Below the pieces are notes generated by a model that was given only the letters and a program-made list of their open reading frames with translations, had not been told where the DNA came from and made no database searches. A program made the translations under genes and the position numbers. From Cirrosporium novae-zelandiae (lineage: Eukaryota), in assembly GCA_026023565.1 (NCBI GenBank), contig JAPETS010000049.1, positions 124,001-177,348 of the forward strand: a DNA stretch of 53,348 nucleotides, given 5' to 3'. Shown piece after piece: positions 38,889-40,642 of the stretch. The number at the start of each line of letters is the position of its first letter. Positions within the stretch are counted from its first letter, which is position 1.

Positions 38889-39043
38889 GTAATGGTGAAC
38901 TTTACGTTGCGTTTTGTTTTATTGTTTCCGTCATATATCCACGTTCCGGATGTACAAGTTTGATCATTGTCGCGCATTCATAGAGCAATACCCTGCAATA
39001 AAAGTTCCCTTTGAAAGCAAGTGACAAGCCCTTGCATTTTCAT

Positions 39044-39906
39044 CTATGCACCTTCCTCGGATCGTGGCTCTGTACATTCCGGCGTCTTGTTTGGCATAGT
39101 CTTGAAGCCATTGATTTCCCACCCAAAAGCGCCCTTGGGGCTTTTTCCCAGTCCACCTCCTCGAGAATCCGTCATCTCCCATTCAACTAGCTGTGGACCA
39201 AATTTACCATGCTCCTCCCCTTCTTCGAAGTCAAAGACCCGGAAATCGGCATTGTCGAATTTCTTCTGGCACAAACCAACCCGCAAGAACCCAGCATGTG
39301 ACACGACAGCAATGGCCTTCTCAGGCCTATCCCTAAGCCAACGTCTAGCCGCAATACCTCTTTTAGTCAAAGCTTCTTGTGAGTATTCATAGAAACCTTC
39401 CTTGGACGGGTACACAGGGTCAATCTCCGACCAGTCAAACTGCGGCCATTCTTGTGATATTTGCGAAATCGGACTGCCGACATCACACGGCTTGATTGTC
39501 GTCTCTTGGAACTCGGCCCGGACCACAGCTGGCACACCACGTTCCATCAGCCAACCGAGTGACTGCTCCGTGGTCTGCAGGGTGCGGCGCATTGGAGAAA
39601 CCACTATCAGGTCGATTTGTTGGGCAATGGGAAGCGAGGACTGCAGGGACTGACAAAGCGAGTTGCATTGAGGGCCAAGACCGAGTTCCGTAAGGGGAGG
39701 GTCATGGATGGTGTAATTTTGTGTGTTGTGTTAGTTATATCTATATACGTACATCCCCACAATGGGAAATGCGATGGGGGAAAACTTATTGGTCACGTCT
39801 AGGATATGATTAGGAAGGAGGTTGCAGAGGTGGAGAATGGGCGTAAAGAGAATGACGGACTATGTAGTGCTTGTGCATGTCTTATCAAGATGATCGTTGG
39901 GGCCAT
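39044..39906 (-). CDS. Histidine phosphatase / phosphoglycerate-mutase-like protein
   Basis: MAPTIILIRHAQALH-NVT-KNYTIHDPPLTELG...VVSPMRRTLQT...AEFQE...AVVSHAGFL. Exons 39906-39861, 39798-39790 (9 nt) and 39720-39044. The second intron has AT...AC ends. Confidence 0.85.
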
Positions 39907-40606
39907 TTGAAGATCTTGGCACTTTGAGTCATGCAGTGCTGCTAGAAGACTCTGCAGGATAAGATAATAATACAATGAAGGAGAAGTGCTCCGAATATGA
40001 CAAATAGAAGGGGGGCGGGTTTGTGGAATCAACGTGCTGCTTTATTGTGCCCTTATGCACGCATATAGCAAAACAGGAATTTGTGGTCAGGTTGAAAGTA
40101 ATTGTCCCGCTGTTGTTATCCCAGAGGCAGATCTGGATAAAGCTGAAATTCAAATCCATGGTGTGAGTCGGCAAGCCCTATGCCAAGGACCCCGATATCC
40201 CCTATGTATTATTAGCGTAGAGTATATCCCCCTGACTAGAGACTTGATACGTACAGCACTTTGTAAACAAAGCCTTGATCTACTTCGATAATCATATGTG
40301 CTGGATGAACTTGATGTAAAATGCTGAAATTTTCATGTCCTGAGATTTCAAGAACTTGTGGCTACAAAAGCTCTCCGACAAACCTGCTGTGGGCTCTAAA
40401 TTTGTTATGAAAGTTATGATAGATGATGTCATTTATACTTGGACATTGGGCAGGCACTAATTAAGGCATCAGCACGTGCCATCTAATCTAATCTTCAAGC
40501 CTAACAATTGAACATCAAATTTGAACACTGAGCTTATCTACAAACTAACAAGCCTAGCTCTAGTGCCCGCCCAGCCGCCGCCTTGGACAAATAGGAGGCT
40601 TCTGGT

Positions 40607-40642
40607 GACCTAAAGGACCTAAAGGACCTAAAGGATCTAAAG
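40607..40642. repeat. 9-bp tandem repeat (GACCTAAAG) x4, last unit variant
   Basis: Read directly. Lies just upstream of the alpha/beta-hydrolase ATG. Confidence 0.9.

What the first reader, a model, noticed from the sequence alone, without database searches (positions are those of the whole stretch)
39721..39798. Apparent AT-AC intron with U2-type signals after a 9-nt micro-exon in a PGM/histidine-phosphatase gene
Seen: on the minus strand, a canonical GT-AG intron (39860-39799) is followed by the micro-exon AC GTG ACC A. Next is a 69-nt segment starting ATAAGT (GTAAGT with G>A), containing an ACTAAC branch site and ending ...CACAC. Removing it gives RHAQALHNVTKNYTIHDPPLTELG, the intact family motif. 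Retaining it hits an in-frame TAA. No AG lies between the branch site and DPPLT, and the internal GTACGT donor paired with the next AGs frameshifts. Established: U12 AT-AC introns use an ATATCCTT donor, and Pezizomycotina are generally thought to lack the minor spliceosome. Inference: a rare major-spliceosome AT-AC intron, with reciprocal terminal changes that argue against simple decay, possibly a regulated splicing bottleneck that gene finders would miss.
Basis: partly seen in the sequence, partly recalled or inferred. Interest (0 to 1): 0.75.

Follow-up and report, generated by a model that had tools for sequence, protein, structure and literature searches.

The report
Conserved AT-AC intron in fungal phosphatase gene
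A histidine-phosphatase gene of this helotialean fungus needs an intron that begins with AT and ends with AC instead of GT and AG, and relatives in three classes of filamentous ascomycetes carry the same odd intron at the same spot, where gene finders regularly mis-read it.

Summary
On the minus strand the gene reads: exon 1 (39906-39861), a GT-AG intron (39860-39799), a 9-nt micro-exon (39798-39790), a 69-nt intron ATAAGT...ACTAAC...CACAC (39789-39721), and exon 3 (39720-39044). No GT/GC-AG solution restores the frame. The AT-AC solution gives a 243-aa PF00300 protein that aligns from residue 1 with orthologues.

The intron is not private to this genome. Of 69 relatives' metagenome loci that keep both flanking motifs, 41 carry an AT-AC intron here, 40 in the same phase. 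That makes 37 distinct introns counting the window's. A1, T2, G5, T6 and the terminal AC are invariant. The branch site is CTRAY, with the branch A 9-12 nt from the 3' end. None has U12-type signals.

Best protein matches place these loci in Leotiomycetes, Sordariomycetes and Dothideomycetes (Aureobasidium). GT-AG occurs here only when both ends differ, and no mixed pair was seen.

An Aureobasidium melanogenum contig ORF reads straight across the junction. It is 232/232 identical, downstream of the junction, to a genome-derived model that reads through the intron's 3' end.

No RNA data exist for the window's own organism. Verdict: a real, ancient U2-type AT-AC (type II) intron. It is a new member of a known rare kind, and it is often mis-annotated.

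The parts
39861..39906 (-). Exon 1: ATG (39906-39904) to the first base of the Asn codon. Encodes MAPTIILIRHAQALH plus 1 nt, including the catalytic Arg-His of the histidine-phosphatase motif.
   Evidence: The N-terminus matches orthologues P0007, P0011 and P0030 from residue 1.
39799..39860 (-). Intron 1, canonical GT-AG, 62 nt (GTCCGT...CCTAAT...CCTAG), phase 1.
   Evidence: A GT-AG intron sits at the same place in 21 distinct Leotiomycete-type loci.
39790..39798 (-). 9-nt micro-exon ACGTGACCA. It completes Asn, encodes Val-Thr and gives the first base of Lys.
   Evidence: The intron offsets imply a 9-nt micro-exon between the two introns in every locus that has both.
39721..39789 (-). AT-AC intron, 69 nt, phase 1.
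39784..39789 (-). 5' splice site ATAAGT. It equals the U2-type GTAAGT except at +1.
   Evidence: ATAAGT is found in 29 of 37 homologous introns, and A1, T2, G5 and T6 in 37 of 37.
39730..39735 (-). Branch-site motif ACTAAC. The predicted branch A is 39731, 10 nt before the last intron base.
39721..39722 (-). 3' terminal AC. Four ACs follow the branch, and this is the last of them and the only one that keeps the frame.
39044..39720 (-). Exon 3, 677 nt including the stop. It holds the rest of the PF00300 domain (SPMRR, FQE and SHAGF motifs).
   Evidence: open frame; Pfam His_Phos_1, E 1e-12.

Best explanation
The 69 nt at 39789-39721 are a genuine spliceosomal intron with AT-AC ends, removed by the major (U2-type) spliceosome. 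This makes it an 'AT-AC type II' intron.

Proposed mechanism:
- U1 and U6 recognise the 5' site A|AUAAGU, which is consensus at +2 to +6.
- U2 pairs with the CUAAC branch site.
- Exon ligation occurs at the AC that lies 10 nt after the branch adenosine.
- The first-base A and last-base C replace the usual G and G partnership.

Splicing this intron and the upstream GT-AG intron joins exon 1, a 9-nt micro-exon and exon 3 into mRNA for a 243-aa histidine phosphatase.

The intron is old. The same AT-AC intron sits at the same codon position in relatives assigned to Leotiomycetes, Sordariomycetes and Dothideomycetes. It has probably persisted because changing only one end would break splicing. Lineages escape only by changing both ends, by sliding both sites, or by losing the intron.

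Shown here: the anatomy, the lack of any canonical alternative, the conservation and covariation of the ends, the absence of U12 signals, and a transcript-like ORF in Aureobasidium that crosses the junction.

Inferred, not shown: which spliceosome acts, the A-C interaction, and splicing in this particular organism.
For: 1. Anatomy and frame. The AT-AC model gives a 732-nt ORF. No GT/GC-AG-only model exists.

2. Product. It aligns from residue 1 with orthologues at 60-66% identity over 217-245 residues. The His-to-Asp spacing is 9 residues, as in homologues with no intron here, such as L036, L039 and L050.

3. Conservation. Of the 80 loci, 69 keep both flanking motifs.
- 40 have AT-AC at the homologous position and 1 has it shifted.
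- 3 have GT-AG at the same position and 7 have a shifted GT-AG.
- 5 lack this intron, 12 have no intron at all, and 1 is unresolved.

4. Signals in 37 distinct introns.
- 5' site: ATAAGT 29, ATACGT 3, ATGAGT 3, ATATGT 2.
- Last three bases: CAC 31, TAC 5, AAC 1.
- Branch: CTAAC 13, CTGAC 13, CTGAT 6, CTAAT 2, TTGAT 1.
- Branch A to 3' end: 9-12 nt in 35 of 35 scored, and exactly 10 in 24.
- U12-type signals: 0 with ATATCC and 0 with CCTTRAY.

5. Covariation. No unambiguous AT-AG or GT-AC was seen at this position.

6. Breadth.
- The window's relatives are Helotiales.
- L044 is 66-70% identical to Sordariales proteins.
- L056 is 87-91% identical to named Aureobasidium proteins.
- AT-AC loci fall in both halves of the family tree.

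7. Transcript-like evidence.
- P0264 is a 250-aa ORF on a 1632-nt Logan contig. It reads HNVNQEYDIP and WQENSDK without interruption.
- It is 232/232 identical, from the Gln onward, to the A. melanogenum genome-derived model P0379. That model instead reads LTRPA before the Gln.
- LTRPA is what the 3' end of the intron encodes in the congeneric locus L056.
- The AG two bases downstream cannot be the acceptor, because P0264 keeps the Glu.

8. Not an assembly error.

9. Literature.
- U2-type AT-AC introns exist, and a G-to-A change at the first base is rescued by G-to-C at the last base in yeast and human (PMC1557818, section 20 read).
- Ascomycota lack minor introns and minor snRNAs.
- AT-AC junctions were seen in RNA-seq of Fusarium graminearum, where non-canonical sites shown in the paper's figure were Sanger-confirmed, and of Trichoderma (69 of 14305 junctions).
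Against: - There is no RNA evidence from the window's own organism, and no whole genome to search for minor snRNAs.
- The mRNA would be the same if the intron were drawn one base to the right (TA...CA), because 39789 and 39720 are both A. The AT-AC register is therefore chosen by convention and by the family pattern.
- Three other AC dinucleotides lie between the branch and the used AC (3, 6 and 8 nt after the branch A). All three would shift the frame. That the spliceosome picks the fourth is inferred from the family-wide 10-nt spacing, not shown.
- For 10 of the 40 AT-AC loci a stop-free GT/GC-AG-only model of 8-12 residues also exists. These models lose the 9-residue spacing.
- I did not see the Logan contig behind P0264. 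That it comes from RNA is inferred from its lacking two introns.
- Loci are assigned to classes by best protein hits only.
- The narrow branch-to-3' spacing is only modestly tighter than in the neighbouring GT-AG intron, where 18 of 21 lie at 9-12 nt.
Confidence: 0.87

Rival explanations
1. The intron is real, but productive AT-AC splicing is a minority outcome. Most transcripts would retain the 69 nt or use one of the three upstream ACs, both of which give premature stops. The gene would then be held at low output or regulated at the splicing step.
For: - Sheth et al. state that the G1-to-A and last-G-to-C combination splices 'less efficiently' in yeast and human (PMC1557818).
- Three out-of-frame ACs precede the used one.
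- Botrytis cinerea strains carry three different annotated products for this region.
Against: - No expression data of any kind are available for this organism.
- Long conservation of an intact ORF shows that enough correct mRNA is made for selection to act.
- The transcript-like ORFs found (P0264, P0250) are the correctly spliced form.
- This idea is not exclusive of the main explanation.
Confidence: 0.15
2. The gene is a decaying pseudogene whose second intron has lost its GT and AG. The apparent rescue by AT-AC would then be coincidence.
For: - The motif combination alone is expected about once per window by chance.
- The nearest relative, L001, has a 1-nt frame break in exon 1.
Against: - All three exons are intact and the catalytic motifs are present.
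- The same AT-AC ends recur in 36 other distinct introns at this position.
- Decay would not keep A1, T2, G5, T6 and the terminal AC invariant while the intron interiors vary from 45 to 100 nt.
Confidence: 0.03
3. It is a U12-type (minor-spliceosome) AT-AC intron.
For: - AT-AC ends are typical of one U12 subtype.
- The branch-to-3' distance of about 10 nt resembles the short, fixed spacing of U12 introns. That comparison is recalled, not tested here.
Against: - The donor is ATAAGT, not ATATCC, and the branch is CTAAC, not CCTTAAC. These consensus forms are quoted in PMC3033335.
- 0 of 37 homologous introns has either U12 signal.
- Ascomycota lack minor introns and minor snRNAs.
- Rfam finds no snRNA in the window, which is only 53 kb and so weak evidence.
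Confidence: 0.02
4. Assembly or sequencing error: the true sequence is GT...AG.
For: None found.
Against: - The Logan re-assembly at depth 378 is identical over 39000-40000. It probably comes from the same sample.
- Two independent errors at exactly the two intron ends are improbable.
- The same ends occur in dozens of unrelated contigs.
Confidence: 0.01

Closest known systems
U2-type AT-AC ('AT-AC II') introns of animals, such as human SCN4A and SCN5A, and TAF2 in human and fly (Sheth et al. 2006, PMC1557818, section 20 read)
   Same: - AT-AC ends combined with an otherwise consensus U2-type 5' site.
- Conserved in orthologues over long times.
- Very rare: 24 among about 610,000 introns in five species.
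- The same paper notes that xylanase genes of filamentous fungi were hypothesised to hold such introns.
   Different: - This one is in a lineage with no minor spliceosome at all.
- It is short (45-100 nt) with a fungal CTRAY branch site 9-12 nt from the 3' end.
- In Leotiomycetes it follows a 9-nt micro-exon.
- Dependence on the major spliceosome is inferred here, not shown biochemically as it was for SCN4A and SCN5A.
U12-type AT-AC introns (minor spliceosome)
   Same: The terminal dinucleotides, and a short branch-to-3'-end distance.
   Different: - No ATATCC-type donor and no CCTTAAC-type branch in 0 of 37 introns.
- The host lineage lacks the minor machinery.
Laboratory suppressor pairs: a first-base G-to-A change rescued by a last-base G-to-C change in yeast and human introns (as summarised in PMC1557818; the primary papers are recalled, not read)
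   Same: The same A...C pairing of the first and last intron bases. In the family studied here the two ends also change only together: AT-AC or GT-AG, never mixed.
   Different: Those pairs are engineered and inefficient. This one is natural and has been kept across three fungal classes.
AT-AC junctions listed in RNA-seq surveys of Pezizomycotina: Fusarium graminearum (PMC3577648, section 10 read) and Trichoderma longibrachiatum (PMC4324775, passages read)
   Same: They show that Pezizomycotina do splice some AT-AC introns.
   Different: - The text I could read names no gene family, conservation or signal analysis.
- The Fusarium gene list is in a supplement that could not be opened. Overlap with this gene cannot be excluded.
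GC-AG introns
   Same: A non-canonical terminal base is compensated by a near-perfect rest of the 5' site (PMC1557818 passage). Here G5 and T6 are invariant and ATAAGT dominates, while the neighbouring GT-AG intron has a loose 5' site.
   Different: GC-AG changes only position +2 and keeps the G...G ends. It is about 1% of introns, far commoner than AT-AC.

Membership tests
U2-type AT-AC (type II) intron | Intron begins with AT and ends with AC | tested here: met
   39789-39788 is AT and 39722-39721 is AC. A one-base-right register (TA..CA) gives the same mRNA, so the register follows convention and the family pattern.
U2-type AT-AC (type II) intron | 5' splice site fits the U2-type consensus except at +1 | tested here: met
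   The window has ATAAGT. In 37 homologous introns, +2 T, +5 G and +6 T are invariant, +3 is A in 34 and +4 is A in 32.
U2-type AT-AC (type II) intron | No U12-type donor or branch-site motif | tested here: met
   0 of 37 introns has ATATCC and 0 of 37 has CCTTRAY.
U2-type AT-AC (type II) intron | U2-type branch site at a workable distance from the 3' end | tested here: met
   ACTAAC, with the branch A 10 nt from the 3' end. A CTRAY or TTGAT motif is present in 35 of 37 introns, at 9-12 nt.
U2-type AT-AC (type II) intron | The intron is actually excised at these borders in mRNA | tested here: inconclusive
   Window organism: no RNA data.

Relative: the Aureobasidium melanogenum contig ORF P0264 crosses the junction. 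It is 232/232 identical downstream to the genome-derived P0379, which reads intron sequence upstream. That the contig is RNA-derived is inferred.
U2-type AT-AC (type II) intron | Splicing depends on U1, U2, U4 and U6, not on U11, U12, U4atac and U6atac | not testable with these tools
   Only indirect evidence: published surveys find no minor snRNAs or minor introns in Ascomycota.
U12-type intron | Donor of the ATATCC type and branch of the CCTTAAC type | tested here: not met
   The consensus forms are quoted in PMC3033335.
U12-type intron | Minor snRNA genes present in the genome | not testable with these tools
   No whole genome is held. Rfam finds nothing in the 53-kb window, which says little.
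Histidine phosphatase superfamily, branch 1 (PF00300) | Pfam profile match above the curated cut-off | tested here: met
   Exon 3 alone scores 48.5 bits against a cut-off of 21.7, E 1e-12.
Histidine phosphatase superfamily, branch 1 (PF00300) | N-terminal Arg-His catalytic motif joined in frame to the rest of the domain | tested here: met
   This holds only in the AT-AC spliced model: RHA at residue 9, SPMRR at 60, FQE at 89 and SHAGF at 159.
Pseudogene | Frameshifts or stops inside exons, or loss of conserved motifs | tested here: not met
   The ORF is 732 nt with one terminal stop, and it aligns end to end with orthologues.

The most novel reading that the evidence does not exclude
The intron may be a molecular fossil. 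In this reading an AT-AC intron was already present before Dothideomycetes, Sordariomycetes and Leotiomycetes split. It may descend from a U12-type AT-AC intron that survived the loss of the minor spliceosome in Dikarya. Its internal signals would have drifted to U2-type while its two ends stayed locked, because either single-end change is lethal to splicing.

If so, this gene family would be a natural record of U12-to-U2 conversion through the long-postulated AT-AC U2-type intermediate. It would also record the few escape routes from that state: a double change, a 2- or 4-nt slide of both sites, or intron loss.
Probability: 0.12. Interest if true: 0.8.

Novelty: new member of a known kind. 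Interest (0 to 1): 0.58.

Why it matters
1. Annotation. The exons upstream of this intron carry the catalytic Arg-His. Models that miss the intron lose or garble it.
- The database call for this very contig is a 182-aa N-terminally truncated ORF.
- Of 27 related proteins from the first search that keep both motifs, 15 have a wrong spacing.
- So do 15 of 60 in the Sordariomycete-rich set.
- Named Aureobasidium models read through the intron.

2. Mechanism. The family offers dozens of natural replicates of the first-base and last-base partnership of the intron. The ends are always AT-AC or GT-AG, never mixed. The rest of the 5' site is forced to near-consensus and the 3' site sits at a fixed distance from the branch. 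This is a natural counterpart of the classic yeast suppressor experiments.

3. Evolution. A suboptimal intron form has been kept across three classes. That illustrates an evolutionary trap, a two-mutation valley, and its exits.

U2-type AT-AC introns are already known, so this extends a known kind rather than founding a new one.

Tried and rejected
- Whole-genome search for U11, U12, U4atac and U6atac: impossible, because no genome is held. Rfam on the window gave 0 matches and there are no tRNAs.
- RNA evidence for this organism: no RNA holder is listed.
- Runs X2 and X3 of the same study gave no cover of the gene at 80% likeness, apart from one 36-nt piece. No orthologue came from there.
- Motif statistics: the bare motif is not enriched in the window, 1 found against 1.03 expected. 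The GT-AG analogue gave 1 against 0.70.
- Canonical-only splice models for the window: none. By hand I checked donors GTGACC (39796), GT at 39785, GTGGGG (39760), GTACGT (39752) and GTATAT (39748) against every in-frame acceptor position. None is preceded by AG.
- AT-AG as an alternative: impossible in the window because there is no AG. It is possible in frame in loci whose exon 3 starts AAG, but it gives 8 residues rather than 9, and P0264 contradicts it for Aureobasidium.
- Is the branch-to-3' spacing uniquely tight? The SD is 0.59 against 2.75 for intron 1 (Levene p 0.0007). That contrast rests largely on two artefactual values of 3 and one of 15. I therefore treat it as a modest effect.
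- A pyrimidine-rich run at +7 to +10: also partly present in intron 1. Not pursued.
- The 12-residue Botrytis BcDW1 model (NVSNKAHNYELH) could not be reconciled with the other two B. cinerea models without DNA. Left open.
- One literature search was badly framed and returned noise.
- The supplement of PMC3577648, which lists the Fusarium genes with non-canonical sites, could not be opened.
- Searches that found no paper describing an AT-AC intron in this gene family.
Full report
**1. What is in the window**

On the minus strand (recomputed) the gene runs as follows:
- An ATG at 39906-39904 opens exon 1 (46 nt, MAPTIILIRHAQALH plus one base).
- Intron 1 follows at 39860-39799 (62 nt, GTCCGT...CCTAG).
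- A 9-nt micro-exon follows at 39798-39790.
- A 69-nt segment follows at 39789-39721. It starts ATAAGT, holds ACTAAC at 39735-39730 and ends CACAC.
- A 677-nt open frame runs to a stop at 39046-39044.

That last frame alone matches Pfam PF00300 (histidine phosphatase superfamily, branch 1) at 48.5 bits, E 1e-12. Joining the three exons gives 732 nt, or 243 codons and one terminal stop. The motifs RHA, SPMRR, FQE and SHAGF lie at residues 9, 60, 89 and 159.

Retaining the 69 nt meets TAA at codon 37. Between 39741 and 39652 there is no AG at all. I enumerated every model with up to two GT-AG or GC-AG introns of at least 40 nt that leaves 8-12 stop-free residues beginning with Asn between the two conserved motifs. 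It found none for the window. Allowing AT-AC gives one model, NVTKNYTIH.

**2. Is it more than chance, or an error?**

The bare motif (ATAAGT, 25-55 nt, CTRAY, 6-9 nt, AC) occurs once in the window, and 1.03 are expected from shuffles. The motif by itself proves nothing. The weight comes from its frame-restoring position and from comparison with relatives (section 3).

A Logan re-assembly of the run that probably produced this DNA (mean word depth 378) matches 39000-40000 with no difference. The two unusual ends are therefore not an assembly slip. This is not an independent sample.

**3. Relatives**

The exon-3 protein finds 315 relatives. The named ones are Helotiales and other Leotiomycetes at 51-67% identity. 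Correctly modelled orthologues read, for example, HNITKDYTIHDPPLTE (Cadophora) and HNVAHDYTIHDPPLTE (Coleophoma). They have the same length as the window's AT-AC product, which aligns with them from residue 1.

A scan of metagenome contigs with an alignment of 13 family members returned 103 confirmed loci, of which 80 were kept. Of these, 69 retain both flanking motifs. The other 11 are cut or lack one motif, although two of them (L020, L033) still show the intron.

Classification of the 69 loci:

| State at this position | Loci |
|---|---|
| AT-AC at the homologous position (phase 1, ten coding bases after the His codon) | 40 |
| AT-AC shifted by two bases (L030) | 1 |
| GT-AG at the same position (L067, L069, L079) | 3 |
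| GT-AG with both sites shifted by 2-8 nt (L012, L013, L041, L046, L047, L052, L055) | 7 |
| Upstream intron present but this one absent, micro-exon fused to exon 3 (L024, L025, L029, L037, L038) | 5 |
| No intron between the motifs | 12 |
| Unresolved, apparently decayed (L065) | 1 |

- For 30 of the 40 AT-AC loci, no canonical-only model exists under the enumeration rules.
- For the other 10 a stop-free canonical model of 8-12 residues exists, but it loses the 9-residue spacing shown by the intron-less homologues.
- No locus shows an unambiguous AT-AG or GT-AC pair.

**4. Signals**

After removing identical copies there are 37 distinct AT-AC introns, including the window's.
- Positions +1 A, +2 T, +5 G and +6 T are invariant.
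- The hexamer is ATAAGT in 29, ATACGT in 3, ATGAGT in 3 and ATATGT in 2.
- The last three bases are CAC in 31, TAC in 5 and AAC in 1.
- A branch motif is found in 35: CTAAC 13, CTGAC 13, CTGAT 6, CTAAT 2, TTGAT 1.
- The branch A lies 9 nt (2), 10 nt (24), 11 nt (8) or 12 nt (1) before the last intron base.
- Lengths run from 45 to 100 nt, and the interiors are not alignable.
- None has ATATCC at the start or a CCTTRAY branch. These are the U12-type consensus forms quoted in PMC3033335 (passages).

The GT-AG intron just upstream in the same genes (21 distinct) has a much looser 5' site, with 12 different hexamers. Its branch distance is 9-12 nt in 18 of 21. The near-perfect 5' site of the AT-AC intron therefore looks like compensation for the odd first base. 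The fixed spacing is only modestly tighter than normal for these short introns.

In the window, ACs end at 3, 6, 8 and 10 nt after the branch A. Only the last keeps the frame, and it is the one at the family-typical distance.

**5. Breadth**

- A family tree of the exon-3 region (105 rows, quick IQ-TREE; earlier version) splits into two well-supported halves, and AT-AC loci lie in both.
- One half holds the named Leotiomycetes. It includes two Helotiales paralogue groups that both carry the intron. The window sits with L001, Cadophora, Halenospora, Cudoniella and Mollisia.
- The other half holds a starred clade of named Sordariomycetes, with AT-AC loci beside Parathielavia, Lasiosphaeris and Thozetella.
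- L044's second exon is 66-70% identical to Sordariales proteins.
- L056 is 87-91% identical to named Aureobasidium proteins, which are Dothideomycetes.
- At least 10 changes between AT-AC and any other state are needed on the tree. A tree cannot give the direction of change. However, the state occupies deep branches of all three classes, and each gain would need two simultaneous changes. I therefore infer that AT-AC is ancestral, and that GT-AG, shifted and intron-less forms are escapes.
- Class assignment of the metagenome loci rests on best protein hits only.

**6. Is it spliced?**

No RNA run holds this DNA, so the window's organism gives no answer. Relatives give indirect answers.

(a) Aureobasidium melanogenum
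- P0264 is a 250-aa ORF on a 1632-nt Logan contig. It reads ...RHGQALHNVNQEYDIPDP... and ...WQENSDK... without interruption.
- The three Aureobasidium-type genomic loci have the AT-AC intron at the first place and a further intron right after WQ.
- P0264 is 232/232 identical, from the Gln onward, to P0379. P0379 is a 'partial' protein annotated on an A. melanogenum genome, and it reads LTRPA before that Gln.
- LTRPA-Q is what the last bases of the intron encode in L056 (...CTGACGCGTCCTGCAC|AA).
- The two sequences thus part company at the predicted 3' site. The AAG that follows it cannot be the acceptor, because P0264 keeps the Glu.
- That the Logan contig is RNA-derived is my inference from its lacking two introns. 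I could not fetch it.

(b) Cadophora-like contig
- P0250 is a 280-aa ORF on a 2001-nt Logan contig. It is at least 90% identical to Cadophora proteins and reads HNITKDYTIHDPP continuously.

(c) Botrytis cinerea
- Three strains are annotated with three different products here: NVSNNYELH in B05.10, NVAHNYELH in T4, and a 12-residue form in BcDW1.
- The first is what micro-exon plus AT-AC splicing would give. The second is what skipping the micro-exon would give.
- Without the DNA this stays a lead.

**7. Which spliceosome?**

This is not testable here. Published surveys report no convincing minor introns and no minor snRNAs in Ascomycota and Basidiomycota (PMC10639083, PMC2846911 and PMC11347168; passages read). 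The intron's own signals are U2-type. Sheth et al. 2006 (PMC1557818; section 20 read in full) make several relevant points:
- They describe U2-type AT-AC 'type II' introns: 15 human, 6 mouse, 3 fly, and none in worm or Arabidopsis.
- They note that SCN4A and SCN5A introns were shown to use the major spliceosome.
- They note that xylanase genes of filamentous fungi had been hypothesised to hold such introns.
- They recall that a first-base G-to-A change is rescued, less efficiently, by a last-base G-to-C change in yeast and human.

AT-AC junctions have been listed in RNA-seq of Fusarium graminearum (PMC3577648, section 10) and Trichoderma longibrachiatum (69 of 14305 junctions, PMC4324775). Frey and Pucker (PMC7072748, passages) find AT-AC rarer in fungal annotations than in plants and animals.

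**8. Comparison and novelty**

The intron works like, and meets every sequence-level criterion of, a U2-type AT-AC (type II) intron. The biochemical criterion could not be tested.

It is not a U12-type intron, because the donor and branch criteria were tested and not met. It is not a pseudogene feature.

Five literature searches found no paper that describes an AT-AC intron in this phosphatase family or its conservation. The Fusarium gene list sits in a supplement that I could not open, so prior listing of an orthologue cannot be excluded.

I file it as a new member of a known rare kind. Three features go beyond the known cases:
- conservation across three classes of a lineage without a minor spliceosome;
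- strict co-variation of the two ends;
- a string of visible escape routes.

**9. Consequences for annotation**

- The collection's own gene call on this contig is a 182-aa ORF from an internal Met (P0002).
- Among proteins that keep both motifs, the correct 9-residue spacing is found in 12 of 27 in the first search and 45 of 60 in the second.
- In the third search it is found in 79 of the 83 that keep both motifs. A further 31 of the 114 lack a motif.
- Typical errors are skipping the micro-exon (HN-YTIP), reading AATAAG as Asn-Lys, or starting in the intron.

**10. Verdict**

Confidence that this is a genuine AT-AC intron handled by the major spliceosome is 0.87. Interest is moderate to fairly high for splicing evolution and fungal annotation, but the kind is known.

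Noticed in passing
window about 40607-40640: Three to four tandem copies of a 9-nt unit (TTTAGGTCC on the minus strand). They lie in the intergenic stretch about 700 nt upstream of the phosphatase ATG.
   Followed up: no
window about 40676 onward, + strand: A divergently oriented ORF begins MPIKPTLVMIHGAWHNRQCFE... It looks like the start of an alpha/beta-hydrolase-type gene. That label is recalled, not tested. It was seen only in the ORF list.
   Followed up: no
proteins P0251, P0257, P0034, P0252 (Botrytis cinerea strains): The same gene is annotated with three different peptides at this spot: NVSNNYELH, NVAHNYELH and NVSNKAHNYELH. The read-through model shows a micro-exon-like stretch (DVAH) directly fused to exon 3. 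This suggests a duplicated micro-exon or alternative micro-exon skipping in Botrytis.
   Followed up: partly
L001:about 740-790 (exon 1): L001 is the window's closest relative in the metagenome set (66-67% identity). It has a 1-nt gap in exon 1 that breaks the LIRH motif frame. This is either a sequencing error in a short contig or a decaying copy. Its AT-AC intron signals are intact.
   Followed up: no
L065:about 1400-1470: A copy with no intron here, but with the motif degraded (IPIRHAEALQR then a stop) and only 25 nt between the anchors. It may be a decayed or retro-copied gene. It is sister to L030, which has the AT-AC intron shifted by 2 nt.
   Followed up: no
L012, L013, L046/L047 (intron region): These are apparent conversions of the AT-AC intron to GT-AG by sliding both splice sites in the same direction. 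L012 slides by 4 nt, using the GT inside ATAAGT and adding one residue. L013 and L046/L047 slide by 2 nt, using the AG that often directly follows the AC.
   Followed up: partly
proteins P0266, P0267, P0380, P0391 (named Aureobasidium species): The deposited models either start at an out-of-frame ATG inside exon 1 and read through the whole AT-AC intron (MAKHCTTSIIS...CLTRPAQEYDIP), or insert 8-9 intron-derived residues (HNVNHKIPCLTRPAQEY). These are systematic mis-annotations caused by this intron.
   Followed up: partly
L056 and L063, downstream of exon 3 part 1: In the Aureobasidium-type loci the next intron (after WQ) spans about 500-650 nt. That is far longer than the 45-100-nt introns elsewhere in this family.
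   Followed up: no
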